Source: Eubacteriales bacterium (lineage in GTDB: Bacteria; Bacillota; Clostridia; Peptostreptococcales; Anaerovoracaceae). Taken from it: DNA of 64,000 nucleotides. Positions 13,638 to 48,611 of the stretch are shown here, piece after piece. How positions within the stretch are numbered: the first letter of the stretch is position 1; each line of letters opens with the position of its first letter. The notes beneath the pieces were generated by a model. The model saw only the letters and a program-made list of their open reading frames with translations, had not been told where the DNA came from and searched no databases. Where the stretch lies: positions 1,083 to 65,082 of the forward strand of contig JBAWWY010000007.1 in NCBI GenBank assembly GCA_037144355.1, written 5' to 3'. A program made the position numbers and the translations under genes.

Positions 13638-13671
13638 TGGAAGTCATTCCCCTCTGCATACCTATATGGGG

Positions 13672-13700
13672 AAAAAGAGGGCAATCTCAGCCCTCTTTTT
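13672..13700 (-). terminator. Hairpin with flanking A/T runs between the oxidoreductase structural gene and the accessory operon
   Basis: AAAAAGAGGGC-7 nt-GCCCTCTTTTT. It lies 29 nt downstream of the stop at 13729 and 35 nt upstream of the start at 13637. Confidence 0.6.
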
Positions 13701-13728
13701 CCCAGTATTTATAGGTAATATAATGATC

Positions 13729-34940: not shown

Positions 34941-35164
34941 TTCAATTCCCCCTTTAAAGAATAATAAATTATTATTTATGTGATATTGTTTTGATATCAT
35001 ATAAATATTAATATGACGAATGTATCTTGTCAAGAATATTTTTTTTTACATACTTTTAATTCTTATCAAGCAATAAAATCGAGAAGATGTGTTCTTCCAA
35101 ATTATCCAAATCTTTGATATAATTAGAACTAGTAAATCTTAAGTTTTATTAAAGGGAGATCGAT

Positions 35165-35905
35165 ATGAGTGATCGAAAAACAACAATAATTTTAGCTGCT
35201 TTTACAGTGGTTTTTCCCGTTGTAATCTATTGTCTACAACTATGGATATTCGAAGACCCACGAACAACTTTTTTTTACCTGTTGCAGGACCTGGCATTTG
35301 TTCCAATTTCCGTTGCTCTTGTAACTTTGGTATTCAATAAATTGCTCAGCAACCGAGAAAATGCTCAGAAAATCAAACGTAACAATGTGATGATTACAAC
35401 TTTCTTTGTTGAAAGTGGAACCGATATGATCGTGGAAATGGCTAAGTTCAATAAGAATTTTGAAGAATTTAGGAAGATACTGGCATCAAACAATCTAACT
35501 GGTACGGAAATAATAGAAACTAAAGCGAATGCTTCGAACTATAATTTTATCGTTGACTCAAGAACTGGAGATTTGGAGGAATTCGCCAAATTCTTTACTT
35601 CAAAACGAAATTTCATGTTGAGCATGCTGGATAATAGAACCTTGCTTGAGCACGATACTTTTACCGATATGCTTTGGGCGATATTCCATTTAGCTGATGA
35701 ACTGCAAAGCAGGGCAAATCTTAAAGAATTGCCTGCTCCGGATATGGACCACTTATCTATTGACATTCTAAGGGCTTATAAGCTCATTATTTTGGAATGG
35801 ATTGATTATATAAAATATCTTGGTGGAGATTATCCTTATCTTTTTTCTCTAGCCGTTAGAAAGAATCCTTTCAGTGATAATATCGACGTCAGGATATTGA
35901 AGTAG
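35165..35905 (+). CDS. Hypothetical membrane protein (2 N-terminal TM helices)
   Basis: ORF with a good RBS (aaagggaga). No family recognised. Confidence 0.4.
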   Translation: MSDRKTTIILAAFTVVFPVVIYCLQLWIFEDPRTTFFYLLQDLAFVPISVALVTLVFNKLLSNRENAQKIKRNNVMITTFFVESGTDMIVEMAKFNKNFEEFRKILASNNLTGTEIIETKANASNYNFIVDSRTGDLEEFAKFFTSKRNFMLSMLDNRTLLEHDTFTDMLWAIFHLADELQSRANLKELPAPDMDHLSIDILRAYKLIILEWIDYIKYLGGDYPYLFSLAVRKNPFSDNIDVRILK

Positions 35906-35919
35906 GTATTGCGTGATTG

Positions 35920-36201
35920 CTATTGCCCAGTCTTGTCCAATTTTGCTTCAAGCCTTTTGATTTCATCTTCAAGCTGTTTAACTTTCGACTTGCTTGATAG
36001 CGATGGGTCTTCTTTCCACCAATCAATACCTATTTCTTGAGCCTTGTCGACTGAAGCGATAATAAGCCTTATCTTAATTTGAAGCAATTCTACTTCACCA
36101 ACAGATATCTTAATATCTCCGGCAATTACTATGCCTTTATCTAGTATTCTTTCGAGAAGATCCGCTAAAGTATCCCCGGATGTTGATCTTTGAACAGTCA
36201 T
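35920..36201 (-). CDS. gvpJ: Gas vesicle protein, GvpA/J/M family (GvpJ-like)
   Basis: [43 protein letters not shown] is the GvpA-family core, with a longer C-terminal tail. Confidence 0.8.
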   Translation of the reverse strand: MTVQRSTSGDTLADLLERILDKGIVIAGDIKISVGEVELLQIKIRLIIASVDKAQEIGIDWWKEDPSLSSKSKVKQLEDEIKRLEAKLDKTGQ

Positions 36202-36245
36202 AATAATCCTCTTTTCTTACGAGCAAAACCTTTTTTTAATCTTAT

Positions 36246-36581
36246 TTAAAGCAACTTTCCAAGCGGACCGAGATCTATATTCAAATCCGATTCCTTGAGG
36301 TTGAATATTGCCCTCAACTCGGTCATTTTTTCTTCAAGCTTGATAAATGTCTCTCCCATTCTCTCTGTTTCTTCATCTGAAACAGTTCCATTTTCAATTC
36401 TTCTCATTGCTTGATTTTCCATAAGTTTTCTTAATAACTCAATAACAGTCAAAACTAGTTTTGCCAATCCTTGCTCAACGTTTTCTGGATCAAGTCCAAG
36501 ATTATTGCATTTTTCTGGTTTGTTGTCGCTCATTTCCCTGCCAAATAATTCTATATTATTGTCTCCATCCAAATATTCCAT
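36246..36581 (-). CDS. gvpK: Gas vesicle protein K
   Basis: GLAKLVLTVIELLRKLMENQAMRR is the GvpK hallmark. Confidence 0.8.
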   Translation of the reverse strand: MEYLDGDNNIELFGREMSDNKPEKCNNLGLDPENVEQGLAKLVLTVIELLRKLMENQAMRRIENGTVSDEETERMGETFIKLEEKMTELRAIFNLKESDLNIDLGPLGKLL

Positions 36582-36601
36582 TTGTAATCACCCCTTCAAT
36601 A

Positions 36602-37309
36602 TCAGATAGTCAAATTGCAAAAGTTGTAAGGCGGCCAAGGACCAGTAAGAATGAACTTATAAATGCTATTTTCATCCGCTGCCTTCTTATATGCCAAATT
36701 AAAATCAGAAAGGTCTTCCCTTTTAACAAGATAAACTCCATTAAAAAACATATTATCTGTTTTCAGCAAGGTTAATTTACCGGCCGAAGCACAAGCTAAA
36801 AGTTGTTTATGTATTACTTCTGATTCTTTTTCTGCTAAACTCTTGATACCTTCTTCAATTTTATATTCTTTCATTTTCTGATTCAGATAGCTTGCCACTT
36901 TTTCACTTTTGCTTTCCAATTCCTGGATAGTCATGCTGCTTATTAAATTTCCCCTAATTGTTTCATAATCCCACATTACCCTGACTCCGACTTCAACTTT
37001 GCCCGTTAGGTTGCCAATAACTCTTTTCAGTAATTTATACTTTTCTCCCAACATGGTTTTTGCAGTTTTTAAGTCCATGCAAGTTCCAAATCTAAATGGC
37101 AGTATCGTAGCATTATCTTCCAGCAAATTGTCAAGCACGGCCTCATGCGTCATGAAATTATTTTCTGAATATTTAAGTTCTTTGTCAATAACGCTGTATA
37201 TCATGTTCAAATCTTTGAATTTAAACACTAGCACCTTTGCCTTATCCATTCCTAAAACATCTTCGTCAATTGGCTTATCTGAAATGCAATACATATAAAG
37301 TTTTTCCAT
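36602..37309 (-). CDS. Gas vesicle protein GvpF/GvpL family (copy 3)
   Basis: LYMYCIS...VLPFRFGT...GPWPPYNF are the family hallmarks. Start is ATG 37309 or GTG 37318. Confidence 0.8.
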   Translation of the reverse strand: MEKLYMYCISDKPIDEDVLGMDKAKVLVFKFKDLNMIYSVIDKELKYSENNFMTHEAVLDNLLEDNATILPFRFGTCMDLKTAKTMLGEKYKLLKRVIGNLTGKVEVGVRVMWDYETIRGNLISSMTIQELESKSEKVASYLNQKMKEYKIEEGIKSLAEKESEVIHKQLLACASAGKLTLLKTDNMFFNGVYLVKREDLSDFNLAYKKAADENSIYKFILTGPWPPYNFCNLTI

Positions 37310-37331
37310 AATTATCACCCTGCTGAATTAT

Positions 37332-37547
37332 TTATAGAAGCAACCCTGAAACATCCTTCTTTTCTGGCTCTACTCTTAATAGTCTGTCAACCGATGTTAT
37401 TATAACCTGCAGTCCAACATATATAAGGTTCACATCTGCAATGGAGATAATCAAATCTCCTTTTATTACAATGCCTTTATCGAGGATCCTGTCAAGGACT
37501 TCAAATAATGTTACTTCCTTTGATCTTAAAGCGAAATTGTCATCCAT
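37332..37547 (-). CDS. Gas vesicle protein, small GvpA/J/S-family member
   Basis: [41 protein letters not shown]. Confidence 0.8.
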   Translation of the reverse strand: MDDNFALRSKEVTLFEVLDRILDKGIVIKGDLIISIADVNLIYVGLQVIITSVDRLLRVEPEKKDVSGLLL

Positions 37548-37622
37548 GAAAATCCTCCTACAGACTCCCTTGGTTTATACCCAAGCATTATTTTGATCCA
37601 GTCCTTTTTTTCTTTTCTATTT

Positions 37623-38411
37623 TTATATTAATTCAATAAAATTGTATATCGGCCATGGTCTGCTTTCTTGGAGGAAGTACCCGCTTTCTCCATATTTGTC
37701 GTTGATTTTTTCAATTTCGTCTTTCAAATCCTGAAATTTTATTTTATTCGCTAAAACAACCGCGTTCACGATAAGTTCCACTGAATCAACATCCTCTTCA
37801 TTTATTTCCTTTGTAATAATATTTTCGGACAAGGCTTCAATTCTTTCAAATATCTTCTTCGCATCGCGATTCACGCTATCTTGTATTTGTGATTCGATAG
37901 TGTCTTCCAGCTTTTTTGACAACAAATACGCAATCCCTTTTGGTTTTGCAGTAATTTCCTCAATCTTCTTTTTAACATCCGAAGATTCCAATATTGAACT
38001 TTTCATTTTGTCTTTGTCCAGAAATACTTTGATACTGAACTCGAAATTATTGTCGGCAACTTCCAAGTTTTTAACAATTTTCCCATAATGAGTTTTGAGA
38101 AATTCAGCAACGTTTCTTTCATTTTCGTATATGGTTAGGAACCTCATCGGTAAAACTGAATAATTCTCCATTATCTCTTCAATAATATTTTCATGAGCCA
38201 TTGCCCTTTCTTCAACCCATTCCAAATTATCCAAATGCTTGTTCACTGCATCGCTTTGGAACTCTTGTGAATCGACAAGACTTGATACGGCTTGTATATC
38301 CTTGTAATGAAGTATTTCAACTCGATTTATTCCAGATATAGCCGTTGTTACTGTAATCAATTCATTGTCTGTGATCCCTTTAGTAATGCAGTAAATATAT
38401 ATCAAAGACAT
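37623..38411 (-). CDS. Gas vesicle protein GvpF/GvpL family (copy 2)
   Basis: MSLIYIYCIT...VLPMRF...RPWPIYNF. Start set after RBS gaggggga. Confidence 0.8.
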   Translation of the reverse strand: MSLIYIYCITKGITDNELITVTTAISGINRVEILHYKDIQAVSSLVDSQEFQSDAVNKHLDNLEWVEERAMAHENIIEEIMENYSVLPMRFLTIYENERNVAEFLKTHYGKIVKNLEVADNNFEFSIKVFLDKDKMKSSILESSDVKKKIEEITAKPKGIAYLLSKKLEDTIESQIQDSVNRDAKKIFERIEALSENIITKEINEEDVDSVELIVNAVVLANKIKFQDLKDEIEKINDKYGESGYFLQESRPWPIYNFIELI

Positions 38412-38415
38412 AGTA

Positions 38416-38613
38416 TCAATCCCCCTCTCCCTGATTTTCGGCAAGCAAGTCTAGTAACTCGCCTTCTCTTTCCTCATATTCTTCCTCTGTAATCTCCCCA
38501 AGGTTCAACCTTTGCTCAAGTTCAGCTAATTGTTTTTTTATTGAGGCTGGCCCATATAATTCCTTATCAACTTCATCTTTTATTATCTCTGCCAATTTTA
38601 TTAAAAGCGACAT
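38416..38613 (-). CDS. gvpG: Gas vesicle protein G
   Basis: 65 aa: LIKLAEIIKDEVDKELYGP..LAELEQRLNLGEITEEEYEEREGELL is the typical GvpG pattern. Confidence 0.75.
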   Translation of the reverse strand: MSLLIKLAEIIKDEVDKELYGPASIKKQLAELEQRLNLGEITEEEYEEREGELLDLLAENQGEGD

Positions 38614-38640
38614 TCTTGATCTCCTTATTTATCCTGATAT

Positions 38641-39378
38641 TTATTGAATATTAACAAAACTATATGGAGGAAAAGGTCCTGTACATTTGAAATTCAATTT
38701 ATTTTCATACTTGGCGTCGAGTTCGATTATTAATTTGTCGAAAGCCTCTTCCATATCCTTTCCAATCAGAAATGAGGCGTTTAACACCATTTCATTAGAT
38801 AAATTCTCATTGGCGATGGATTCGTCGGCGAATGCCGAAAGCCTATCAAATATATCATCTTTGTAATTAAGGGAAATCGCGTTCAATTCTCTTTCGATCA
38901 TTTTTCCCACTTCAATAATCAAATTAAGATTCCCGGTTACAATTGTTTTTTCTCTTTTTAATTGTTCAATCACTTGGTTGGAATCTGCGATGGAACTCAA
39001 TACTTCTTCCACATTTGCATGGGATACCTTAACTCCCATTTCAAATTTATTGCTTACCTTGTCAAGCAGGTTCTTAAAACTCATGTACTTTGACTCGAGC
39101 ATTTTAACAACACCTTTTTCATTATCAGCCACAATCCCGAATCTGAATGGCAGAACTGGATATTTTTCCATAACCTTTTCAATTGTCCCTTGGTGGACAA
39201 GATTGTTTTTTCGAGTTGGCCTATATTGCTTAATTTCAGCATTGGAAACCACCGCGGAAATATCCTTGTATTTTATTGTGAAGATTTCCTCATCCTCATT
39301 TTCAATTCCGCCCCTTCCAAATGATGAAACTTCAGGTGCGTTTGTTATGCAATATAGATATAATCCCATTTGCGCCAT
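38641..39378 (-). CDS. Gas vesicle protein GvpF/GvpL family (copy 1)
   Basis: LYLYCIT...VLPFRFG...GPFPPYSF. Confidence 0.8.
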   Translation of the reverse strand: MAQMGLYLYCITNAPEVSSFGRGGIENEDEEIFTIKYKDISAVVSNAEIKQYRPTRKNNLVHQGTIEKVMEKYPVLPFRFGIVADNEKGVVKMLESKYMSFKNLLDKVSNKFEMGVKVSHANVEEVLSSIADSNQVIEQLKREKTIVTGNLNLIIEVGKMIERELNAISLNYKDDIFDRLSAFADESIANENLSNEMVLNASFLIGKDMEEAFDKLIIELDAKYENKLNFKCTGPFPPYSFVNIQ

Positions 39379-39416
39379 TTTGCATCCTTTCTATTGTTAA
39401 ATTCCATGCTGTTCTT

Positions 39417-41540
39417 TTACTTAATCATATAACCTAAATCTTCAATTGCGGTAAAAAAATCTTCCTCCCTGACAATGAAATCCGATATGTCTTCATATTG
39501 AATCTCCTTATGTTCTGCTATATATCTTTTTATAGCCGACATTGCGGCTTTCTTGCAAATATTTTCAATATTGGCCCCTGTAATATTATTTATCTGCTTT
39601 AATATCAATTCAAAATGCATACCGACCTCAACCGGCATCTTGCCTGCGTGAATTCGGAAAATTTCAAGCGCATCTTCAAAACATGGTTCTAATATATTAT
39701 AAATTATATCAAATCTTCCTGATCTCAATAACGCCGGATCTAATATGTCCACCCTATTGGTAGCAGCTAGAATCATAATTCCATCTCTTTTTTCAATGCC
39801 ATCAATTTCCACAAGAAGCTGGCTTAAAACCCTTTCCGAAACCCCTGAATCTCCACCTCCTGAGCCTCTTTTTGGTGCAAGCGAGTCAATCTCGTCAAAG
39901 AATATTATGCAAGGCGACGCAAGTCTTGCCTTTTTAAATACTTCCCTTACTCCTTTCTCACTCTCACCAATCCACTTTGATAATAATTCTGGTCCTTTTA
40001 TATAAATGAAATTTATGCCAGTTTCATTTGCAAGTGCTTTAGCAATCAATGTTTTCCCAGTTCCTGGAGGACCAGACAAAAGGACACCCCTTCCTGGTCT
40101 TACCCCTGTGGCTTCAAATAATTTTGGGTAAAGCAGTGGTAGTCTAATTTCGTTTTCCAGATCGCTTTTAATTTTCTTAAATCCTCCAACATCTTTCCAT
40201 GTAACTTTAGGAACATCCATGAACACCTCTCTCAGTGCTGAAGGTTCGATTTGGTTTACAGCATACATGAAGTTGGCCATATTGACCTTGAGCTGCATAA
40301 TAACGTCGTAAGGAATAGCCCTCAAATTGAAATCAATATCCGGCAGTACTTTCGCCAAAGCATTCATAGCTGCCTCCCTGCATAGATTAGCAATGTCCGC
40401 GCCCACAAAACCATGGGTAATCTCTGCAATCTTCTCAAGGTCCACATCATCATCAAGAGGTATCGACCTTGAATGAACATTTAGTATTTCCAATCTTCCG
40501 TTCTTGTCTGGAACACCAATATAGATTTCCCTGTCAAAACGACCTGGCCTTCTAAGCGCGGTATCTAAAAGCTCCGGCATATTCGTTGCACCAATTACAA
40601 CAATCTGCCCTCGCTTCTCCAACCCATCCATCAGTGTCAGAAGTTGTGTAACAACCCTTTTTTCCACATCTCCCTGAACATCGCCTCGTTTTGGTGCTAT
40701 GGCATCAATTTCATCAATAAAAACAATCGAAGGCGCATTTTTCTTAGCTTCGTCAAAAACCTTTCTTAGGTTTGCCTCGCTTTCCCCATAGAATTTTTGT
40801 ATTATTTCCGGCCCATTTATGCTAACAAAATGTGTTGATGCTTCATTTGCAATTGCTCTTGCAATTAATGTCTTTCCCGATCCTGGAGGTCCATATAGCA
40901 AAACTCCCCTCGGTGGTTCTATCCCTAATTTAACAAACAAGTCAGGATACTTGAGTGGAAGTTCAATCATTTCACGAATTTTTCCAATTTGCTTTTTTAA
41001 TCCGCCGATATCTTCATAAGTTATTTTTCTTTCTGATATCCTTGCATTGCCAGCTTTTAAAAAGAATGCAGTATCCTTGCCAACAACCACAATATCTGAA
41101 GGTTCGGTTTTTTTGACTAGGAAGTCTTCATTGATAAAACCAAACACATTGACTTTAATTACATCTCCTTCGCTTATTGGTTGGCCTTCCATTGCTTTTG
41201 CAAGATATTTTGTGAAATTGCTGTTTTCGTCAATACTTCTTGATGGTTCAATTACAATTTGTTTTGCTTGTATCGCAATTAGTTTCTCAACCTGGACTTT
41301 ATCGTTAATGGCGACACCGGCATTACCCCTTGTGGTGCCATCGATTTCTATGATATTTTTGCCCCTCTCATCAATAAAAGAAGGCATAGCTTTAACAGCC
41401 GTGCGCTTCTTTCCAATAATCTTTATTAGGCTGCCCGTCTCAATCCCAAGTTCGCTGAAAAACAGCGGGTCAATTCTTGCGATTCCTCTTCCTGCATCCT
41501 TGCTTGAACATTCAGATACGCTGAGAAAAATATCGTCCAT
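39417..41540 (-). CDS. CDC48/VAT-type AAA+ ATPase (N-domain + D1 + D2) embedded in the gas-vesicle cluster
   Basis: 707 aa. CDC48-N-like GRGIARIDP...GSLIKIIGKKRTAV, two Walker A motifs (GPPGSGKT, GPPGTGKT), two Walker B motifs (IVFIDEID, IIFFDEID), and SRH regions (ALRRPGRFD, ALLRSGRFD). Confidence 0.85.
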   Translation of the reverse strand: MDDIFLSVSECSSKDAGRGIARIDPLFFSELGIETGSLIKIIGKKRTAVKAMPSFIDERGKNIIEIDGTTRGNAGVAINDKVQVEKLIAIQAKQIVIEPSRSIDENSNFTKYLAKAMEGQPISEGDVIKVNVFGFINEDFLVKKTEPSDIVVVGKDTAFFLKAGNARISERKITYEDIGGLKKQIGKIREMIELPLKYPDLFVKLGIEPPRGVLLYGPPGSGKTLIARAIANEASTHFVSINGPEIIQKFYGESEANLRKVFDEAKKNAPSIVFIDEIDAIAPKRGDVQGDVEKRVVTQLLTLMDGLEKRGQIVVIGATNMPELLDTALRRPGRFDREIYIGVPDKNGRLEILNVHSRSIPLDDDVDLEKIAEITHGFVGADIANLCREAAMNALAKVLPDIDFNLRAIPYDVIMQLKVNMANFMYAVNQIEPSALREVFMDVPKVTWKDVGGFKKIKSDLENEIRLPLLYPKLFEATGVRPGRGVLLSGPPGTGKTLIAKALANETGINFIYIKGPELLSKWIGESEKGVREVFKKARLASPCIIFFDEIDSLAPKRGSGGGDSGVSERVLSQLLVEIDGIEKRDGIMILAATNRVDILDPALLRSGRFDIIYNILEPCFEDALEIFRIHAGKMPVEVGMHFELILKQINNITGANIENICKKAAMSAIKRYIAEHKEIQYEDISDFIVREEDFFTAIEDLGYMIK

Positions 41541-41552
41541 TTGAAATACTCC

Positions 41553-42092
41553 CTATTTAATTAGTTTCTTTAAACTCAATTCAAGCATTCCATTTACATA
41601 ACTTTTTTTGATTGGCTCCTGTTCTACTTCGCTCTTGAACAACAGTTCCTTTTCATATTCCCTAGTAGTCGATTTTGCTGAAATCTGAACAATATCTCCA
41701 TTGATAATGACTTTTATATCATCTTCCGAAACCCCTGGGATTTCTGCTATTACAGTGTAAGTTGCCCCTTCATCCATAATATCCACAATTGGCTCCCGAG
41801 TAGAATCAATAAAAACCTCCCCGTCCTTTTCATCTTTTTTAATCTTGTTTCCAAATTCTTCTATGGATGTGCTGCCATCCAGTGTCCTGACAGTAAATCC
41901 ATAGATACCTTTAACTTTTCCTCCCGTTTCGCTCAAAGTCCCTTCTCTTTTTATTTCGCCTCCGCTCAAATCAGAAACAGTGTTCATGATATCCTTCAAA
42001 CCACCAAACAATTTTCCCAAACCAAAATCAATGTTTATATTTATATCACCCTTCTCATCAATTTTTATATTTCCTTTTTTTTTATCATCCAT
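41553..42092 (-). CDS. Hsp20/alpha-crystallin-family small heat-shock protein (gas-vesicle-cluster associated)
   Basis: C-terminal ACD: YTVIAEIPGVSEDDIKVIINGDIVQISAKS...YVNGMLELSLKK. Confidence 0.7.
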   Translation of the reverse strand: MDDKKKGNIKIDEKGDININIDFGLGKLFGGLKDIMNTVSDLSGGEIKREGTLSETGGKVKGIYGFTVRTLDGSTSIEEFGNKIKKDEKDGEVFIDSTREPIVDIMDEGATYTVIAEIPGVSEDDIKVIINGDIVQISAKSTTREYEKELLFKSEVEQEPIKKSYVNGMLELSLKKLIK

Positions 42093-42118
42093 AACTATTA
42101 TTCACCTGCCAATATGCT

Positions 42119-42451
42119 TTAATATTCTACTTCAATAATTTTAATTTTATTGTATGGGTTGTTCTCATTCAGTTTTCCAGGTTGATAATACCCAGTGCCA
42201 ACCTGTACATCTCTTCGCCTTTGAGATATATATGCTTCCATGTCATCGATTTCACTTTCAACTCTGTTTAATTCGTATTTAGCTGCATTAGCCTTAGTTT
42301 CACAAGTCGTTATAATATTTTGCAGCATGTTTTTTCTTGAATGAAGTACCTGCAAGTCGAAATAGATAGACCCTTCTTTCTTTGGAATGCTGCTGAGTGG
42401 CCTACTGGATACTTGGGTCTTACAGAAACTGCCTCTATTTTTAATTATCAT
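42119..42451 (-). CDS. Hypothetical protein within the gas-vesicle cluster
   Basis: 110 aa with a good RBS (aagaaggga). Predicted helical middle section. No family recognised. Confidence 0.4.
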   Translation of the reverse strand: MIIKNRGSFCKTQVSSRPLSSIPKKEGSIYFDLQVLHSRKNMLQNIITTCETKANAAKYELNRVESEIDDMEAYISQRRRDVQVGTGYYQPGKLNENNPYNKIKIIEVEY

Positions 42452-42531
42452 GTTTAAATCCCTTCTTTACAAAATCTAAAATTTTCGTCATTCAACCTGA
42501 CAATTTACTAATGATGCAATTATATTCATGC

Positions 42532-43494
42532 TCAACAATGCTTGTTGATGAGTTCATCAACTACCTGTTTGCTAATATTCTTAGAATCGTTTTCCATTGC
42601 CAAATTGTTAATCTTGGAGCATAACATGTCATAAGCCACTTTACGGAAAAATGCATCCTTCTTTGATGCGTGACAATTGTTTTCCTTCAATATCTTCCCC
42701 ATCATAACTCCAACCCTTAGGGATGGAATCGATGAATATGATCCATTATTCCTAAAATCCCTTATCAAGTTTACAATTTTGTCTGCATCCTCATAAGCGA
42801 TATTTGCTCTTCCCCTTACAATTTCCCTTTCTGTCTCGGCATCCATATATCCCATATTGATTGTTATCATCCTGTCAAGAAGGGCATCCTGGATTTTATG
42901 AACTCCAGCATATTCTTCCGAATTGCTGGTGAAAATAGCCTTAAAATTCGGATGAACTTTTACATATCTTTCGGAGCTCATCGAATCGCTTGTTTCCAAC
43001 ATTCTTTCTTCGAATATATTTAGTAGAATATTATTCGTTTCTGGCCTTGAACGATTAAATTCATCATATATAAGAGTAAAACCGTTTCTGCATGCAATAG
43101 TAAGCTGGTTGTCAACCCACTTCTTTTGATAGTCATCAACGGTTTTCAATACGGAGTGTATGTAATTGTCAACAAGTTTCTCTCTTCTATATCCGGCCTC
43201 CGAACCAACGAGGTCAGAAGGAAGATATTCATCATTGCCATGAATGATTGTTACCGGGACATTGAAGCAAGAGGCTACGTGCATGGCAAGGGTTGTCTTG
43301 CCTGTACCGGCAGGTCCCCTTAGATGAACAGGATATCCGGCATTCAGATATCTGGTGACTCTCATGGTCAGCTCTTTTATATATGGTGTAATAACATACG
43401 AATCTTGCTTCTTCAGCCTTATCGCAACCGGTTCGTATGGATTTTCCGACCTTTCAATAATATCGATTTGCTCAATTTGACGGATTTGCTCCAT
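42532..43494 (-). CDS. gvpN: Gas vesicle protein N (MoxR/CbbQ-like AAA+ ATPase)
   Basis: YPVHLRGPAGTGKTTLAMHVA (Walker A) and LIYDEFNR (Walker B). The size and position after the gvpO-like gene fit gvpN. Confidence 0.8.
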   Translation of the reverse strand: MEQIRQIEQIDIIERSENPYEPVAIRLKKQDSYVITPYIKELTMRVTRYLNAGYPVHLRGPAGTGKTTLAMHVASCFNVPVTIIHGNDEYLPSDLVGSEAGYRREKLVDNYIHSVLKTVDDYQKKWVDNQLTIACRNGFTLIYDEFNRSRPETNNILLNIFEERMLETSDSMSSERYVKVHPNFKAIFTSNSEEYAGVHKIQDALLDRMITINMGYMDAETEREIVRGRANIAYEDADKIVNLIRDFRNNGSYSSIPSLRVGVMMGKILKENNCHASKKDAFFRKVAYDMLCSKINNLAMENDSKNISKQVVDELINKHC

Positions 43495-43520
43495 TCTCAA
43501 CACCTCCCCGCTTTTTACTC

Positions 43521-43793
43521 CTACGCTGAAGGTTCAATTGGTCCAATGTCGGTCCTCTCTCGCAAATGCATTCGCTTGAAGCCCATAACCATTCCATTGT
43601 CGTCCAATTCCACTTCATAAAGACCAACTAGGTCGGTCTTTGCAAATTTCCTAACATACTCGGATTCCTCAATAATTTCAAAATGGGAAACCCACTTATT
43701 TTCTTTCTTTACAAGTTCAATTATCTTACCGGTTTGGCTGAAATTACCGGAAATAAATTCGAGCACCTTATCCCTGATCTGGATAAATTCCAT
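43521..43793 (-). CDS. gvpO: GvpO-like gas vesicle protein
   Basis: 90 aa: ...WVSHFEIIEESEYVRKFAKTDLVGLYEVELDDNGMVMGFKRMHLRER. This resembles the GvpO/GvpR C-terminal pattern (Y-x-V-x-L-D..G-x-V-x-G-(F/Y)-x-R). Start set at MEFIQ, which follows gaggggg. Confidence 0.55.
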   Translation of the reverse strand: MEFIQIRDKVLEFISGNFSQTGKIIELVKKENKWVSHFEIIEESEYVRKFAKTDLVGLYEVELDDNGMVMGFKRMHLRERTDIGPIEPSA

Positions 43794-43820
43794 AAAAAAA
43801 CCCCCTCGCTCCAATTACTG

Positions 43821-44123
43821 TCAATCTGTCTTTTTTTCCGGCATATAACTTCTGATAACCTGGTAAAACATGCCGATTTCATTTAATATGTTCGATCTGG
43901 CTGATGGGTTTGTTGTTTCTGATAATGAGTTGAATCTTTTCAACACTTCATCAATGTAATCCCCCAAGGCTTGAAGCTGCTTATTTGCTTCAATGTCCTG
44001 GCTATTGGATATCATAATGTCAATTTTTTCTTTCAAATTGGGAAGAGCCTGGATTATCTCTTCATAGACTCTTTCCATTTCATCATTTCTTCTATCGATA
44101 TCATCATTCATATCCTGCGACAT
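43821..44123 (-). CDS. Hypothetical acidic helical protein within the gas-vesicle cluster
   Basis: 100 aa. No family recognised. Confidence 0.4.
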   Translation of the reverse strand: MSQDMNDDIDRRNDEMERVYEEIIQALPNLKEKIDIMISNSQDIEANKQLQALGDYIDEVLKRFNSLSETTNPSARSNILNEIGMFYQVIRSYMPEKKTD

Positions 44124-44163
44124 CGTAATCTTCCTCTCTTAGTTACAAACGGTTAACTTATAA

Positions 44164-44643
44164 TTAGCTCGGCTTGGTTTTTCTTTTAACAGTGTTCCAT
44201 TCTTTTCTCGCACCAGACATATCCTTGTGAAAACCACCTAACATTCCGCCGACATTATCTCTCAAATCATTTGCAAAAGCATTAAGTGATGTTCTTGTAT
44301 CATCGCCCATGTTTTTTCTTGCTTCATTGAAATCTGCAATCATTCCACTTACATCGGTTTTCAACTTGTTCAGTTCTAAAACTCTAATTCTTGTATCTTC
44401 TATACTGTTTCTTATTCTTTGCTTTCGATAATCATTAATCATATTGCTGACCTCTGACTTTAGTTTTTTAAGTTCGGCCATTCTATGCTTGGTATCATCC
44501 AAATTCATCTTTGTTCTATGTTTGCGAAAATTATTCATCATATTTACATTAGTCTTTTTTAAAGAACGAATGTATCCCTGCCTTTTATCATAATTGCTAT
44601 CTATATCCATTCTCAATGATCTCATCGCACTGGTTAAACTCAT
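44164..44643 (-). CDS. Repeat protein made of 33-residue units, directly downstream of gvpA (candidate GvpC-like gas-vesicle shell-stiffening protein)
   Basis: 159 aa from MSLTS, after RBS ggaaggaggt. Consecutive 33-aa units: NMMNNFRKHRTKMNLDDTKHRMAELKKLKSEVS / NMINDYRKQRIRNSIEDTRIRVLELNKLKTDVS / GMIADFNEARKNMGDDTRTSLNAFANDLRDNVG, then a partial unit GMLGGFHKDM... Units 2 and 3 match at 16 of 33 positions. Confidence 0.6.
   Translation of the reverse strand: MSLTSAMRSLRMDIDSNYDKRQGYIRSLKKTNVNMMNNFRKHRTKMNLDDTKHRMAELKKLKSEVSNMINDYRKQRIRNSIEDTRIRVLELNKLKTDVSGMIADFNEARKNMGDDTRTSLNAFANDLRDNVGGMLGGFHKDMSGARKEWNTVKRKTKPS
44248..44643 (-). repeat. Four tandem 99-nt (33-codon) coding repeats
   Basis: Period seen in the translation: aa 1-33, 34-66, 67-99, 100-132. 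The repeats are degenerate at the DNA level. Confidence 0.6.
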
Positions 44644-44677
44644 GATGTCTACCTCCTTCCAATATTCATTTAACATT

Positions 44678-44701
44678 GTGGGAGAGACTAGTCTCTCCCA
44701 C
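44678..44701 (-). other. Perfect 24-nt palindrome (RNA hairpin) in the gvpA-downstream intergenic region
   Basis: GTGGGAGAGACTAGTCTCTCCCAC. No U-run follows on the coding (minus) strand. Confidence 0.7.
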
Positions 44702-44819
44702 TTTGGCTAGCACAATCGTACTTGGAAAATCTATAAAATCTGCTTTAAAGCATTTTCTTTATCCTTAATGCCTACTATTGAATACCCAAGTATTAATAGT
44801 TTTGCTATATCTTGGGAAA

Positions 44820-45041
44820 TTAAGCGGCATGTGGTTGTGCAGCTGTTGCGGTAAGTCCAACTGCCTCTGCATATTTCAAATATGTTTCAACAGATGCGAT
44901 TACCAACCTTAATTCAATTGCTATTAGCTCGATCCCTACCAACGAAACCCTGGCCCACAAATCAACAACAATACCTTTGTCCAAAATTCTGTCGATAACT
45001 TCAGCGAGACTAGATGATGAGTTTGTTTTTTCTACTGCCAT
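44820..45041 (-). CDS. gvpA: Major gas vesicle structural protein GvpA
   Basis: 73 aa: [63 protein letters not shown]. This is near-canonical GvpA. RBS is gggaggtg. Confidence 0.95.
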
Positions 45042-45077
45042 TTCTGACACCTCCCTTCTCAAATATTTGCCCTAATT

Positions 45078-45107
45078 ATTATATACTCTCTTTAAAATAT
45101 AATGTCA
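45078..45107 (-). promoter_or_regulatory. Consensus sigma-A-type promoter for gvpA
   Basis: Minus strand: TTGACA (45107-45102), 18 nt spacer, TATAAT (45083-45078). It lies ~37 nt upstream of the gvpA ATG. Confidence 0.65.
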
Positions 45108-45116
45108 ATATGCCTA

Positions 45117-45145
45117 TTGACATTTACCATTATTTATTTTATAAT
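45117..45145 (+). promoter_or_regulatory. Consensus sigma-A-type promoter for the divergent gene 45205-46410
   Basis: Plus strand: TTGACA (45117-45122), 17 nt spacer, TATAAT (45140-45145). Confidence 0.65.
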
Positions 45146-45204
45146 TCATTGTGTATTATTTATCTAAATGTCACCCCTTATATATTTAGGGCCAATAAGG
45201 AAAG

Positions 45205-46410
45205 GTGGTGCTGGGTTTGTCCAAAAATCAACAATTAAGATCTGACATTATACGCCAAGCCAATTCAGGATTACTAACCGTTCCAAAAGCTGCCTTTGCC
45301 CTTGGTATATCAGAAAGACAAGTTCAACGTCTGAAGAAAATTATGAGAATTTCGGATTCTGGTGATTCCTCTGGTTTGAATTCTATTAGGAAAGCATACA
45401 ACTCCATACCCGAAGATATTAAAAATAGTATTCTTGAGATAAAAAATCAGGAAGAATATATTAATTGTAATTTTTATAATTTCAATGAAATACTAAGTAA
45501 TTTCTATGATATAAAAATTAGCTACTCAACTTTATATAAAATCTTATCATACAATGGATACAAATCTCCGAAAACCAGGAGACGTTTCAAAAGGCATACT
45601 AGAATTAAAAAAATAACTAATAGCCGGGTGCTTTTTCAATTAGTCTCCCCATCATTTGCATGGTTTGGGAATAAGGAAGAATATATTCTACATATTGATA
45701 TAGCGAATACCCCTTCACAGATTTCTGCTATTTATTTGAAAAGTAGTGAAGATTCTATTAATGTCACTAGTATGAAAGAGTCTCCTAAAAAGTTTTCAAA
45801 GTTTATTGGTGAGGAAGATAGCAATGACAAAAGTCTTTCCATAGTAAGGTTGCCGGATTCCGATTGGATTTCCATAACGCCCCATGGTAATACAGTTTAT
45901 CAAAATAACAGTAATCATTTTGGCAAACCTCCAAAAAAAAATATTGGGACCAAGCTAATAGCCCCTAGATCCCCACACAGCAAGCTTCGTATCGATAGAC
46001 TTTGGGAAATTCTACAGGGTTGGCTTTCAATAGAGTTTGCTCAAAGGGAAATTAAAAGCATAGATCAAGCAAATAAATATCTTCGCGTTTTTGTTCAAGC
46101 AAATACACCTCTCGGCAGTTATATTTCAAATTTAAACGACCGATTTATTCTGCCTATGGATAGTCTTGAGGGCGATATAATTAAAGCACTTGCAAAGTTT
46201 AATTTTGATGAGGATTTCATGCGCAAGAAGAAGCTATCCATGAAAAGAGCCGGACTTGTTTCAATAAAAAACGCCAGCTTCAAAATGGATAAGCAGTTGT
46301 TTGAAAAAAAGAATTTTGAAGAATATATGAAAAGAAGAGTTGTTTATAAAAATCGTGATACTGAAATTTTAGATATGATTTCAGAAATATTCCAAAAGAG
46401 CTATAAATAG
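45205..46410 (+). CDS. ISNCY-like transposase-derived HTH protein with a degenerate catalytic core (possibly domesticated)
   Basis: N-terminal HTH (AAFALGISERQVQRLKK). Collinear with the ISNCY-type transposase pattern: Y..FN..F.E.L...Y.I.ISYSTLYKIL; L-Q-x-[D]-xSP..WF here reads LFQLVSPSFAWF (Asp replaced); IDDAT here reads IDIAN; SPQAKGRIER here reads SPHSKLRIDR. GTG start. Confidence 0.55.
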   Translation: MVLGLSKNQQLRSDIIRQANSGLLTVPKAAFALGISERQVQRLKKIMRISDSGDSSGLNSIRKAYNSIPEDIKNSILEIKNQEEYINCNFYNFNEILSNFYDIKISYSTLYKILSYNGYKSPKTRRRFKRHTRIKKITNSRVLFQLVSPSFAWFGNKEEYILHIDIANTPSQISAIYLKSSEDSINVTSMKESPKKFSKFIGEEDSNDKSLSIVRLPDSDWISITPHGNTVYQNNSNHFGKPPKKNIGTKLIAPRSPHSKLRIDRLWEILQGWLSIEFAQREIKSIDQANKYLRVFVQANTPLGSYISNLNDRFILPMDSLEGDIIKALAKFNFDEDFMRKKKLSMKRAGLVSIKNASFKMDKQLFEKKNFEEYMKRRVVYKNRDTEILDMISEIFQKSYK

Positions 46411-46433
46411 AATCTGCAATTTCATGTTGTTTT

Positions 46434-46465
46434 AAAAAGGAGATGGTTTTATCCATCTCCTTTTC
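46434..46465. terminator. Bidirectional terminator between the convergent genes 45205-46410 and 46476-47126
   Basis: AAAAAGGAGATGG-ttttat-CCATCTCCTTTTC. Confidence 0.8.
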
Positions 46466-46475
46466 TGTATTCAAA

Positions 46476-47126
46476 TTAATTATTCATAAGCTCATTTGCC
46501 AGGGTAACTGCCTCTGCCGCGTTTTCGCTAAAACCATCGGCTCCAATCTTTTGGCACCATCTGGAAGTTACAGGTGCTCCACCTACCATTGTTTTAAATC
46601 TGCCTTTGAGTCCACGTTCTTTCAACAGAGACTCCAGCTTTTGTTGCTGTATCATGGTAGTGGTGAGCAATGTGCTTGTGCCAATAATATCCGCATTATG
46701 TTTAACGGCTTCTTCAATGATATTCTCATTGGAGACATCCCTTCCAAGATCAATGACTTCAAAGCCGTTGGCAACTAAAAGCGAAGCAACAATGCACTTG
46801 CCTATGTCATGTAAATCGCTCTCAACGGTTGCAAGTATTATTCTGCCCTTTTGCTTCCTCTTTTCTCCCCGGTCCTCCATTGCCTTGTTGAGAATTTCCA
46901 CAGCTTCCTTTATTGCATCTGCCGCCATCATGACTTCAGGTAAAAACACTTCGCCATCTTCAAACAAATCCCCTATTTCCATAATCCCTGGTACAAATCC
47001 CTTTTCTATAAATTCTTCAGGCTCAACTCCATCGTCAAGACCCTTTTGTGCGAGAGATAGGGCGAGAATTTTATCGCCATCAATGATGGATTGCTTTGCT
47101 GCTTCTAATAATTTAGAATCAATCAT
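46476..47126 (-). CDS. Methyltransferase-cognate corrinoid (B12-binding) protein, MtbC/MttC-like
   Basis: 216 aa. The B12-binding-2 cap is followed by ESDLHDIGKCIV (DxHxxG), then GTSTLLTTT and GGAP. Its ATG overlaps the stop of mtbB by 1 nt. Confidence 0.85.
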   Translation of the reverse strand: MIDSKLLEAAKQSIIDGDKILALSLAQKGLDDGVEPEEFIEKGFVPGIMEIGDLFEDGEVFLPEVMMAADAIKEAVEILNKAMEDRGEKRKQKGRIILATVESDLHDIGKCIVASLLVANGFEVIDLGRDVSNENIIEEAVKHNADIIGTSTLLTTTMIQQQKLESLLKERGLKGRFKTMVGGAPVTSRWCQKIGADGFSENAAEAVTLANELMNN

Positions 47127-48544: not shown

Positions 48545-48611
48545 AAGTTTTCTCCTTATAATAACAAGTGCTATAAGCAACTAAAAATATATATGGTAGG
48601 TTAATATAATA

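What the first reader, a model, noticed from the sequence alone, without database searches (positions are those of the whole stretch)
35920..45145. Complete gas-vesicle gene cluster with non-canonical members
Fifteen co-oriented ORFs run in this order: gvpA, 33-residue-repeat protein, unknown (100 aa), gvpO-like, gvpN, unknown (110 aa), Hsp20, CDC48-type ATPase, gvpF/L, gvpG, gvpF/L, small gvpA/J/S-like, gvpF/L, gvpK, gvpJ-like.

The F-G-L-S-K-J core order resembles the Bacillus megaterium cluster. That cluster does not contain the repeat protein, the CDC48 ATPase or the two unknown ORFs.

Gas vesicles are rarely studied in low-GC anaerobes, where some are reported attached to endospores. Compact clusters are also of applied interest as acoustic reporter genes.
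Basis: partly seen in the sequence, partly recalled or inferred. Interest (0 to 1): 0.6.

Follow-up and report, generated by a model that had tools for sequence, protein, structure and literature searches.

The report
Gas-vesicle operon with built-in unfoldase
This is an intact 15-gene operon for gas-filled flotation vesicles in a small anaerobic Clostridia-type bacterium; most of its "odd" genes are recognisable gas-vesicle parts, but it carries a CDC48-type protein-unfolding motor that sits inside gas-vesicle clusters of many phyla and that I did not find mentioned in the gas-vesicle papers I searched.

Summary

Eleven match curated gas-vesicle families: GvpA, O, N, three F/L, G, K and two further GvpA-family proteins (S-like and J-like).

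The four "non-canonical" members resolve as follows:
- **110-aa ORF:** probably GvpV. It follows gvpN in 12 loci and always ends in Tyr.
- **Hsp20:** GvpH-like.
- **Repeat protein:** a true 33-residue repeat. It belongs to an unannotated family found after gvpA in at least seven phyla. GvpC profiles do not match it, so I call it a GvpC analogue.
- **100-aa ORF:** a lineage-restricted helical orphan.

The CDC48/VAT-type ATPase is the interesting part. In a 401-genome sample of the phylum, 9 of 14 GvpN-positive genomes carry one, always inside the gvp cluster. It also sits in gvp clusters of six other phylum-level groups, and a version lacking the N domain is gvp-linked in Nostoc. These copies fall outside the main clade of unlinked CDC48s. 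The protein is 88% identical to its counterpart in a close relative, more than GvpN.

I found no paper describing this. None of 30 nearest relatives has GvpN, so the operon is probably a horizontally acquired island.

Verdict: a new variant of a known kind. Vesicle formation is untested.

The parts
45078..45124 (-). Promoter region of gvpA: TTGACA (45107-45102), 17 nt, TATATA. The -35 box is one arm of an inverted repeat, TGTCAA...TTGACA.
   Evidence: Sequence read. The TTGACA, the GTATATA and the inverted TGTCAA arm are all conserved in the close relatives L065 and L067. The consensus scan lists only the plus-strand partner at 45117-45145.
44820..45041 (-). gvpA, the major shell protein (73 aa from the ATG at 45041; the ORF extends to 45062)
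   Evidence: NF006874 132 bits over its cut-off and PF00741. GGGAGG ribosome-binding site. 97% identical to the L065 copy.
44678..44701 (-). Stem-loop of 10 base pairs between gvpA and the next gene. Probably a gvpA transcript 3' stabiliser or partial terminator.
   Evidence: It forms in both the MFE and the centroid fold; the spacer folds with z = -2.7. The stem is identical in L065 with a different loop. L004 has a hairpin of different sequence at the same place. Function is inferred.
44164..44643 (-). 33-residue-repeat protein (159 aa), a GvpC analogue
   Evidence: Period 33 with 0 of 2000 shuffles reaching the score. Family A2 sits next to gvpA and gvpN in at least seven phylum-level groups. 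No TIGR02641, PF01304 or PF05465 hit. The L065 orthologue is exactly 33 aa shorter.
43821..44123 (-). 100-aa helical orphan
   Evidence: No family hit. Only two 100-aa homologues among 1.84 billion representatives. Same place and length in L065 and L067. AF2 predicts a three-helix bundle, pLDDT 76. No fold match.
43521..43814 (-). gvpO (likely start at the ATG at 43793, giving 90 aa)
   Evidence: PF05800 at 30.4 bits, over its cut-off. 69% identical to the L065 copy.
42532..43503 (-). gvpN, a MoxR-type AAA+ ATPase
   Evidence: TIGR02640 at 342 bits, over its cut-off.
42119..42451 (-). GvpV-like coiled-coil protein (110 aa)
   Evidence: A small gene directly follows gvpN in 12 loci. The C-terminal Tyr is invariant. 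hhalign probabilities are 79-97% to the proteins in the GvpV position in Nostoc and Spartinivicinus. AF2 predicts a single long helix, residues 29-84.
41553..42092 (-). Hsp20 / GvpH-like small heat-shock protein (179 aa)
   Evidence: PF00011 at 29 bits, over its cut-off. Collinear BLASTP match to Halobacterium GvpH, E = 3e-6. Alpha-crystallin domain matches PDB 4rzk.
39417..41540 (-). CDC48/VAT-type double-ring AAA+ ATPase (707 aa)
   Evidence: TIGR01243 at 867 bits, over its cut-off, with N domains and two AAA modules. Best solved relative is Thermoplasma VAT, 5g4f, E = 2e-212. Walker A and B intact in both rings; pore loops KFYG and KWIG; no HbYX tail. gvp-linked across phyla.
38641..39378 (-). 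gvpF
   Evidence: PF06386 at 193 bits.
38416..38613 (-). gvpG
   Evidence: PF05120 at 64 bits.
37623..38444 (-). gvpL-like (likely start at the ATG at 38411)
   Evidence: PF06386 at 155 bits. The best NCBIfam hit is GvpL, but below its cut-off.
37332..37547 (-). gvpS/M-like small GvpA-family protein (71 aa)
   Evidence: PF00741 at 60 bits. 91% identical to the L065 copy.
36602..37318 (-). Third gvpF/L paralogue
   Evidence: PF06386 at 161 bits.
36246..36581 (-). gvpK
   Evidence: PF05121 at 117 bits.
35920..36201 (-). gvpJ-like GvpA-family protein (93 aa)
   Evidence: PF00741 at 63 bits. The best NCBIfam hit is haloarchaeal GvpJ.
45205..46410 (+). Divergently transcribed ISNCY-transposase-like HTH protein. 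It travels with the cluster and is a candidate regulator.
   Evidence: NF033594 at 122 bits, below its cut-off of 250. A 378-aa homologue, 35% identical, sits at the same divergent position in L065, L066 and L067, in a different genomic context.

Best explanation
The region is a genuine and probably functional gas-vesicle operon.

**Expression (inferred).** One sigma-70-type promoter drives gvpA. A conserved hairpin after gvpA probably raises the amount of gvpA transcript relative to the 14 downstream genes.

**Roles by homology.**
- GvpA builds the ribbed shell.
- The 33-residue-repeat protein most likely lies along the ribs as an outer strengthener, as GvpC does.
- GvpF, GvpL, the third F/L paralogue, GvpG, GvpK, GvpJ, GvpS and GvpO form the nucleation and assembly set.
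- GvpN and the GvpV-like protein drive growth from bicone to cylinder.

**The distinctive part (inferred, about 45%).** The conserved gene block is Hsp20(GvpH-like)-CDC48-GvpF-GvpG. I propose a dedicated holdase plus unfoldase pair. The small heat-shock protein keeps the very hydrophobic GvpA-family proteins soluble. The VAT-like hexamer threads and releases them, or pulls them out of mis-assembled or collapsed shells, for correct insertion.

**Origin.** The operon, together with its divergent HTH gene, behaves as a horizontally acquired cassette.

**Shown versus inferred.** Shown: gene content, intactness, conservation, and the linkage and separate phylogeny of the CDC48. Inferred: vesicle formation, surface binding of the repeat protein, and the client and direction of action of the CDC48.
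For: **Gene set.** The full core set matches above curated cut-offs. All 15 ORFs are intact.

**Conservation in a close relative.** An independent metagenomic relative, L065, has the same 15 genes in the same order but in a different genomic neighbourhood. Core proteins are 76-97% identical.

**CDC48 conservation.** At 88% identity it is more conserved than GvpN, GvpK or GvpF.

**CDC48 linkage to gvp.**
- In 401 genomes of the phylum, GvpN is in 14 and CDC48 in 38.
- Nine genomes have both, and in all nine the CDC48 is inside the gvp cluster.
- Odds ratio 22, p = 3e-7, not corrected for phylogeny.
- CDC48 lies inside gvp clusters labelled Omnitrophica, Chloroflexia, Scalindua (Planctomycetota), Thermotogae, Bipolaricaulota and Prolixibacteraceae (a possibly mis-binned MAG), besides several Bacillota. 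Hsp20 is directly upstream in 9 of 13 such clusters.
- A Nostoc plasmid has a CDC48-like D1-D2 ATPase, 50% identical, next to gvpW.

**CDC48 phylogeny.** 27 of 29 unlinked CDC48s form one clade (SH-aLRT 93), and every gvp-linked copy falls outside it. The linked/unlinked label needs one change on the tree, against 14.5 in shuffles.

**CDC48 competence.** Closest solved relative is the VAT unfoldase. Both Walker A and B sets are intact and both pore loops are aromatic. There is no HbYX tail, and the genome has only one proteasome-family hit, an HslV-like gene, so a stand-alone unfoldase is likely.

**Hsp20.** It resembles GvpH. GvpH keeps GvpM from aggregating in Haloferax (PMC6107691).

**GvpV.** Serratia GvpV and GvpN are both needed for the bicone-to-cylinder step (PMC4982088).

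**Repeat protein.** Period 33. The orthologue differs by exactly one unit.
Against: - No expression or phenotype data exist.
- CDC48 is not universal in gvp clusters. Five of 14 GvpN-positive genomes in the phylum lack it. It is also absent from the Halobacterium, Marinococcus, Desulforhopalus, Spartinivicinus and Cyclobacteriaceae clusters examined.
- Two lineages keep only remnants of it (L014, L013). It is therefore dispensable in some backgrounds.
- The backbone of the CDC48 tree is unresolved. The split between linked and unlinked copies has weak support of its own (6), and the tree has no archaeal outgroup.
- GvpC profiles do not match the repeat protein.
- The GvpV assignment rests on 79-97% hhalign probabilities over a coiled-coil segment, plus a C-terminal motif.
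Confidence: 0.8

Rival explanations
1. The Hsp20 and CDC48 are general proteostasis genes that have merely lodged in the operon. They serve the whole cell, and the gas-vesicle machinery does not need them.
For: - 29 of 387 GvpN-negative genomes of the phylum also have a CDC48, so the family has other roles.
- Five of 14 GvpN-positive genomes lack it.
- CDC48 is reduced to remnants in L014 and L013.
- Model clusters (Halobacterium, and Bacillaceae represented here by Marinococcus) contain no CDC48 gene.
Against: - It is the only CDC48 in this genome (one match), and it sits mid-operon between gvpN/V/H and gvpF.
- The same embedding recurs in seven or more phylum-level groups.
- All nine genomes of the phylum sample that have both genes have them linked.
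- Linked copies fall outside the main clade of unlinked ones.
- It is more conserved than most gvp genes.
Confidence: 0.2
2. The CDC48 acts mainly to dismantle or regulate rather than to assemble. It would strip GvpA from collapsed or unwanted vesicles to lower buoyancy and recycle protein. Alternatively it would remove a regulator, as haloarchaeal GvpD removes GvpE.
For: - VAT-type enzymes unfold and extract proteins from stable assemblies (closest structure 5g4f).
- Collapsed vesicles cannot be reinflated, so recycling would need an unfoldase (established knowledge).
- GvpD, an NTPase, leads to degradation of GvpE (PMC9501494).
Against: - No partner protease is evident: there is no HbYX tail and only an HslV-like gene.
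- No GvpD or GvpE homologue is in the cluster.
- The tight linkage to GvpH-like and GvpF assembly factors fits assembly at least as well.
- This rival overlaps with the best explanation and differs only in direction of action.
Confidence: 0.2
3. The operon is a silent or recently acquired island that this organism does not use.
For: - None of 30 nearest relatives has GvpN.
- The same-genus genome has both flanks but no gvp DNA.
- A transposase-like gene lies at the edge.
- Thermacetogenium phaeum carries a gvp operon, but vesicles were never seen in its cultures (PMC3551663).
Against: - All 15 genes are intact and have ribosome-binding sites.
- A conserved consensus-like promoter is present.
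- The pattern of conservation against L065 (shell proteins 90-97%, accessory proteins lower) is that of genes under selection.
- GC content is the same as the surroundings.
Confidence: 0.1

Closest known systems
Bacillus (Priestia) megaterium-type gvp cluster (gvpAPQBRNFGLSKJTU), represented here by the Marinococcus loci L020-L023
   Same: Gram-positive-type order gvpA ... O/R-like, N, F, G, L, S, K, J. The families match.
   Different: The window adds a 33-residue-repeat protein, a 100-aa orphan, a GvpV-like gene, Hsp20, CDC48 and a third F/L paralogue between S and K. The Marinococcus loci have none of the repeat, GvpV-like or CDC48 genes. GvpT and GvpU were not searched for.
Serratia sp. 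ATCC 39006 gvpA1-C-N-V-F1-G... operon (PMC4982088)
   Same: The same left-hand logic: shell gene, then a strengthener, then gvpN, then a small gene directly after it (GvpV), then gvpF and gvpG. A GvpH is present.
   Different: Serratia has no CDC48 among its listed genes (PMC4982088, PMC9501494). The paper reported GvpV in only five proteobacteria. Here the family appears in Bacillota and many other phyla.
Cyanobacterial GvpC (33-residue repeats; TIGR02641, PF01304)
   Same: Located directly after gvpA. Tandem 33-residue units, helical and highly charged. Orthologues differ by whole units.
   Different: No profile match, although the Nostoc control scores 133 bits. hhalign probability is 16%. 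It belongs to a separate unannotated family (A2), and some members carry a C-terminal winged-helix-like domain.
Haloarchaeal GvpH (PF05455)
   Same: Similar length. Collinear similarity, E = 3e-6, including the motif ahead of the alpha-crystallin core. GvpH is a documented anti-aggregation factor for GvpM (PMC6107691).
   Different: The window protein scores on generic Hsp20 (PF00011) and not on PF05455. It is paired with a CDC48, which Halobacterium's cluster lacks.
Thermoplasma VAT / archaeal CDC48 (PDB 5g4f)
   Same: N domain plus D1 and D2. Aromatic pore loops in both rings. E = 2e-212.
   Different: Bacterial, with no HbYX tail and no 20S proteasome in the genome. Encoded inside an organelle-assembly operon.
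ArsA-type ATPase and Hsp20 in gvp clusters (PMC2963123)
   Same: A precedent for an extra ATPase plus Hsp20 embedded in gvp clusters, proposed to energise a biogenesis step.
   Different: A different ATPase superfamily. That paper does not mention CDC48. The Nostoc plasmid has both an ArsA and a CDC48-like gene after gvpW.

Membership tests
Gas-vesicle (gvp) gene cluster | Major shell protein GvpA | tested here: met
   NF006874 at 132 bits against a cut-off of 100; PF00741
Gas-vesicle (gvp) gene cluster | Conserved accessory set F, G, K, L, N plus two further GvpA-family proteins (J and M/S) and GvpO | tested here: met
   PF06386 three times, PF05120, PF05121, TIGR02640, PF00741 twice and PF05800, all over their cut-offs
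Gas-vesicle (gvp) gene cluster | Produces gas-filled, pressure-collapsible vesicles | not testable with these tools
   Needs expression, TEM and pressure nephelometry
GvpC (cyanobacterial or haloarchaeal) | Match to a GvpC repeat profile (TIGR02641/PF01304 or PF05465) | tested here: not met
   None of the nine family members hits. The controls do hit: Nostoc GvpC 133 bits and Halobacterium GvpC 245 bits. hhalign probability is 16%.
GvpC (cyanobacterial or haloarchaeal) | Tandem repeats of about 33 residues, encoded next to gvpA | tested here: met
   Period 33, with 0 of 2000 shuffles reaching the score. The gene directly follows gvpA.
GvpC (cyanobacterial or haloarchaeal) | Binds the outer shell surface and raises collapse pressure | not testable with these tools
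   Biochemical assay needed
GvpV | Small protein encoded directly after gvpN (Serratia arrangement) | tested here: met
   This position holds in the window and in 11 other loci
GvpV | Sequence relationship to proteins in the GvpV position of a gammaproteobacterial and a cyanobacterial cluster | tested here: inconclusive
   hhalign gives 92-97% (E = 8e-7 to 1e-10) against Spartinivicinus and 79-88% (E = 3e-6 to 1.5e-5) against Nostoc. All share the h-x-h-x-Y C-terminus. The segment is a coiled coil, and I had no Serratia GvpV sequence.
GvpH / Hsp20 | Alpha-crystallin domain | tested here: met
   PF00011 at 29 bits against 20.8; PDB 4rzk, E = 1e-15
GvpH / Hsp20 | Match to the GvpH profile PF05455 | tested here: not met
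   No hit at E < 0.01. Pairwise BLASTP to Halobacterium GvpH nevertheless gives E = 3e-6.
CDC48/VAT AAA+ ATPase | CDC48 N domain (double-psi barrel plus beta-clam) followed by two AAA modules | tested here: met
   PF02359, PF02933 and PF00004 twice; TIGR01243 at 867 bits against 803
CDC48/VAT AAA+ ATPase | Intact Walker A and B in D1 and D2, and aromatic pore loops | tested here: met
   Two Walker A motifs of the GPPGxGKT type; IVFIDEID and IIFFDEID; KFYG and KWIG
CDC48/VAT AAA+ ATPase | C-terminal HbYX motif for docking on the 20S proteasome (archaeal Cdc48) | tested here: not met
   The protein ends ...GYMIK. The genome has only one PF00227 hit, an HslV-like gene.
CDC48/VAT AAA+ ATPase | Hexameric ATP-driven unfoldase activity | not testable with these tools
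   Biochemistry needed
B. megaterium-type cluster | Presence of gvpT and gvpU | not tested
   No profile or reference sequence was at hand. No further ORF follows gvpJ on this strand.

The most novel reading that the evidence does not exclude
Gas-vesicle clusters of many, mostly anaerobic, bacterial lineages, and in an N-domain-less form cyanobacteria too, carry their own VAT/CDC48-type unfoldase. It is paired with a GvpH-like small heat-shock protein. Together they would form an organelle-specific holdase-unfoldase system that handles the extremely hydrophobic GvpA-family proteins, either delivering them during assembly or recycling them from collapsed shells. This module would be a missing component that helps explain why many clusters fail when moved into E. 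coli.
Probability: 0.4. Interest if true: 0.7.

Novelty: new variant of a known kind. Interest (0 to 1): 0.55.

Why it matters
Gas vesicles are studied both as buoyancy organelles and as genetically encoded ultrasound reporters.

Most natural clusters fail on transfer. Ten of 15 gave no vesicles in E. coli, and clusters with few "non-gvp" genes were deliberately chosen for that screen (PMC10344784).

This locus shows three things:
- A CDC48/VAT-type unfoldase plus Hsp20 is a recurrent, phylogenetically distinct part of gvp clusters across phyla.
- A GvpV-like gene and a 33-residue-repeat strengthener family are far more widespread than the literature states, yet every public homologue for which a source gave a name is called "hypothetical" or carries an unrelated automatic label.
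- A compact 9.2-kb, 15-gene version exists that could be tested directly.

If the unfoldase proves necessary, it would give the field a new assembly or recycling factor. It would also give a rare bacterial CDC48 a defined client.

Tried and rejected
- **GvpC membership of the repeat protein.** Rejected at the sequence level. Neither the window protein nor eight relatives hit TIGR02641, PF01304 or PF05465, while the controls did. hhalign gave 16%.
- **Structure of the GvpV-like protein.** AF2 gave one long helix with disordered ends, too plain for a fold search.
- **Structure of the 100-aa orphan.** AF2 gave a moderate-confidence three-helix bundle. Foldseek against the PDB found nothing at E <= 0.001.
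- **Exhaustive search with the orphan.** Only two real homologues turned up among 1.84 billion representatives.
- **Rfam scan of 35000-46500.** No riboswitch or known RNA.
- **Terminator scan.** No convincing minus-strand terminator after gvpJ. The convergent neighbouring gene ends 14 nt away.
- **Empty-site test in the same-genus genome.** Both flanks are present, but its contigs break there, so no clean empty site could be shown.
- **Literature.** Seven searches found no paper describing CDC48 in gvp clusters. The only mentions are a non-specific Ni-NTA contaminant (Cdc48d, PMC6107691) and unrelated haloarchaeal stress studies.
- **A flaw in the CDC48 tree.** For one row (L059/G381) my script picked the wrong ORF. 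That row should be ignored.

Full report
**1. What is there**

The window stretch 35920-45062 holds fifteen co-oriented minus-strand ORFs with short gaps or overlaps and no internal stops.

Curated profiles identify eleven of them above their cut-offs:
- GvpA: NF006874, 132 bits.
- GvpO: PF05800.
- GvpN: TIGR02640, 342 bits.
- Three GvpL/GvpF proteins: PF06386, 155-193 bits.
- GvpG and GvpK.
- Two further PF00741 proteins of 71 and 93 aa, S/M-like and J-like.

Two more have general families. One is an Hsp20 (PF00011). The other is a CDC48-family ATPase (TIGR01243, 867 bits against a cut-off of 803) with CDC48_N, CDC48_2 and two AAA modules.

Three have no family: the 159/170-aa repeat protein, a 100-aa ORF and a 110-aa ORF.

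These are the only GvpA-family genes in the 2.1-Mb, 99%-complete genome.

The likely true starts follow good ribosome-binding sites: gvpA at 45041 and the repeat gene at 44643.

A TTGACA-17-TATATA promoter with an inverted TGTCAA arm lies upstream of gvpA and is conserved in the nearest relatives.

A 10-bp hairpin at 44678-44701 follows gvpA. Its stem is identical in relative L065, and a hairpin of different sequence stands at the same place in L004. I read it as a device that raises the gvpA message relative to the accessory genes. That is inference.

**2. The "non-canonical" genes, one by one**

*The 110-aa ORF*
- A gene of 92-130 aa follows gvpN directly in the window and in 11 other loci from many phyla.
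- All have a basic N-terminus, a motif of the form Y-x-x-L-x-x-L, a coiled coil, and a C-terminus h-x-h-x-Y. The final Tyr is the only invariant column.
- AF2 predicts one long helix, residues 29-84.
- The protein in the same position of a gammaproteobacterial cluster (Spartinivicinus, ending FIMRY) matches the family profile at 92-97%.
- The protein in the GvpV position of a Nostoc plasmid cluster (ending FDIEY) matches at 79-88%.
- In Serratia the gene after gvpN is gvpV. Both are needed to turn bicones into cylinders, and GvpV was then known from only five proteobacteria (PMC4982088).
- I therefore call the ORF GvpV-like, with about 75% confidence. Among its 81 detected public homologues, nearly every one that a source names is called "hypothetical"; none is called a gas-vesicle protein.

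*The Hsp20*
- It has a C-terminal alpha-crystallin domain.
- It aligns collinearly with Halobacterium GvpH over 131 residues, E = 3e-6, although PF05455 itself does not score.
- GvpH keeps GvpM soluble in Haloferax (PMC6107691).
- Hsp20 genes in gvp clusters have been noted before (PMC2963123).

*The repeat protein*
- The 33-residue period is strong: the offset-33 score is 104 against -36 +/- 12 in shuffles.
- An iterated search among the fetched loci found relatives next to gvpA and gvpN in Omnitrophica, Chloroflexia, Desulforhopalus, Scalindua, Thermotogae and Bipolaricaulota.
- Several relatives also show periods of 33, or of multiples of 11.
- Some members hit apolipoprotein or phasin models, which describe amphipathic surface-binding helices.
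- None hits any GvpC profile, whereas the Nostoc and Halobacterium GvpC controls do.
- The closest orthologue is exactly one unit shorter, 126 aa against 159. I recall cyanobacterial GvpC varying in the same way, by whole units.
- It works like GvpC by every sequence-level sign, but I do not file it as a member of the GvpC families.

*The 100-aa ORF*
- It has two 100-aa homologues among 1.84 billion representatives.
- It has the same place and length in L065 and L067, and a distant 156-aa relative in L005.
- It is a predicted three-helix bundle without fold matches.
- It is a real but lineage-restricted gene of unknown role.

**3. The CDC48**

*Features of the protein*
- Its closest solved relative is the Thermoplasma unfoldase VAT, E = 2e-212.
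- Both Walker A and B sets are intact, and both pore loops are aromatic (KFYG, KWIG).
- It lacks the HbYX tail, and the genome has only an HslV-like proteasome-family gene. A stand-alone unfoldase is therefore likely.

*Linkage to gvp genes*
- Among 21 loci retrieved with GvpN, a full-length CDC48 lies inside the gvp cluster in 13. These carry labels of seven or more phylum-level groups.
- The usual block is Hsp20-CDC48-GvpF-GvpG.
- In an even sample of 401 genomes of the window's phylum, GvpN occurs in 14 and CDC48 in 38. Nine genomes have both.
- In eight of those nine the two genes are within 4 kb of each other. In the ninth the CDC48 is next to GvpA-family genes on a contig fragment.
- The association gives an odds ratio of 22 and p = 3e-7, not corrected for relatedness.

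*Phylogeny*
- In a maximum-likelihood tree, 27 of the 29 unlinked copies form one clade (SH-aLRT 93).
- All gvp-linked copies lie outside it, including those from other phyla and a Nostoc N-domain-less homologue.
- The linked/unlinked label needs one change on the tree, against 14.5 in shuffles.
- The backbone is unresolved and there is no outgroup.

*Conservation*
- Against the close relative L065 the CDC48 is 88% identical. That is higher than GvpN (82%), GvpK (82%) and GvpF (76%). Only the shell-family proteins are more conserved, at 90-97%.

*Evidence for dispensability*
- Five of 14 GvpN-positive genomes have no CDC48.
- Model clusters lack it.
- Two lineages retain only remnants.

**4. 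Origin**

- None of the 30 nearest genomes has GvpN: one of the same genus, 17 of the same family and 12 of the same order.
- The same-genus genome matches both flanks at 75-80% but has no gvp DNA. Its contigs end at the flank, so an empty site could not be shown.
- The relative L065 has the same 15 genes, plus the divergent ISNCY-transposase-like HTH gene, in a different neighbourhood.
- The cluster therefore behaves as a transferable cassette of 16 genes.

**5. Mechanism**

The best-supported reading is a working gas-vesicle operon, with about 80% confidence.

Within it, I propose that the GvpH-like Hsp20 holds hydrophobic GvpA-family proteins. The VAT-like hexamer would then unfold or extract them, for insertion or for recycling from faulty or collapsed shells. 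I put this at about 40-45%.

The rivals are a passenger proteostasis gene, a mainly dismantling or regulatory role, and a silent island.

**6. Known or new**

The cluster itself is a new member of a well-known kind.

The embedded, phylogenetically separate CDC48-Hsp20 module is not mentioned in the gas-vesicle reviews and papers I could search. The same goes for the wide spread of the GvpV-like family and the 33-repeat family. The nearest precedent is the ArsA-plus-Hsp20 observation (PMC2963123).

This scan's first stage had also flagged the CDC48/Hsp20 pair and the repeat protein on this same DNA. Those were leads, and I tested them here.

I rate the finding a new variant of a known kind, with interest 0.55.

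Spo0A is present, but SpoIVA was not found.

Noticed in passing
window 45205-46410 (+): An ISNCY-transposase-like HTH protein (NF033594, 122 bits, below its cut-off) is transcribed divergently from gvpA. A homologue, 35% identical, holds the same position in L065, L066 and L067 in a different genomic context. It travels with the cluster and may be a domesticated regulator.
   Followed up: partly
window 45096-45124: An inverted repeat, TGTCAA-N-TTGACA, overlaps the gvpA -35 box. It is conserved in L065 and L067, with a slightly different spacer. It could be two back-to-back promoters or an operator.
   Followed up: partly
window 46476-48580 (-): A corrinoid protein gene is followed by two adjacent same-strand ORFs (47126-47479 and 47504-48580). 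They look like one methylamine methyltransferase interrupted by an in-frame stop, which would suggest pyrrolysine.
   Followed up: no
L006:6028-6429 and L016:6567-6911: In the Omnitrophica and Scalindua gvp clusters, a protein made of repeated CxxCxGxG zinc-finger units (like the DnaJ cysteine-rich domain) lies between the repeat-protein gene and gvpN. This is another chaperone-like insert in gvp clusters.
   Followed up: no
L009/L010:7248-9461 and 11915-14083: Anaerobacterium chartisolvens and a related MAG carry two CDC48 paralogues in one gvp cluster. They also have a 360-aa protein with a GvpA domain and a 440-aa GvpF/L protein.
   Followed up: no
L014:7779-8036; L013:5846-6295: CDC48 is reduced to an 85-aa remnant between Hsp20 and gvpF in one Bacillota MAG, although its close relative L011 keeps the full gene. 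Another MAG has a fragment of about 150 aa. These point to lineage-specific loss.
   Followed up: partly
L025:9801-13584 (Nostoc sphaeroides plasmid p4): Directly after gvpW lie an ArsA-family ATPase and a 613-aa double-AAA protein. The latter is 50% identical to the window CDC48 over D1-D2 but has no N domain.
   Followed up: partly
L004:1821-2429, L005:429-1463, L018:104-745, L019:5472-6458: Several members of the repeat-protein family carry an acidic linker and a conserved C-terminal domain of about 50 aa that looks like a winged helix. The window protein lacks both.
   Followed up: no
own genome G000:C41:5962-6741: Spo0A is present at 286 bits, over its cut-off, but no SpoIVA ATPase domain was found in the 99%-complete genome. 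Endospore formation by this organism is therefore uncertain.
   Followed up: partly
L007:11797-13880: The Chloroflexia gvp-linked CDC48 is split over two overlapping frames. This is a frameshift or an assembly error.
   Followed up: no
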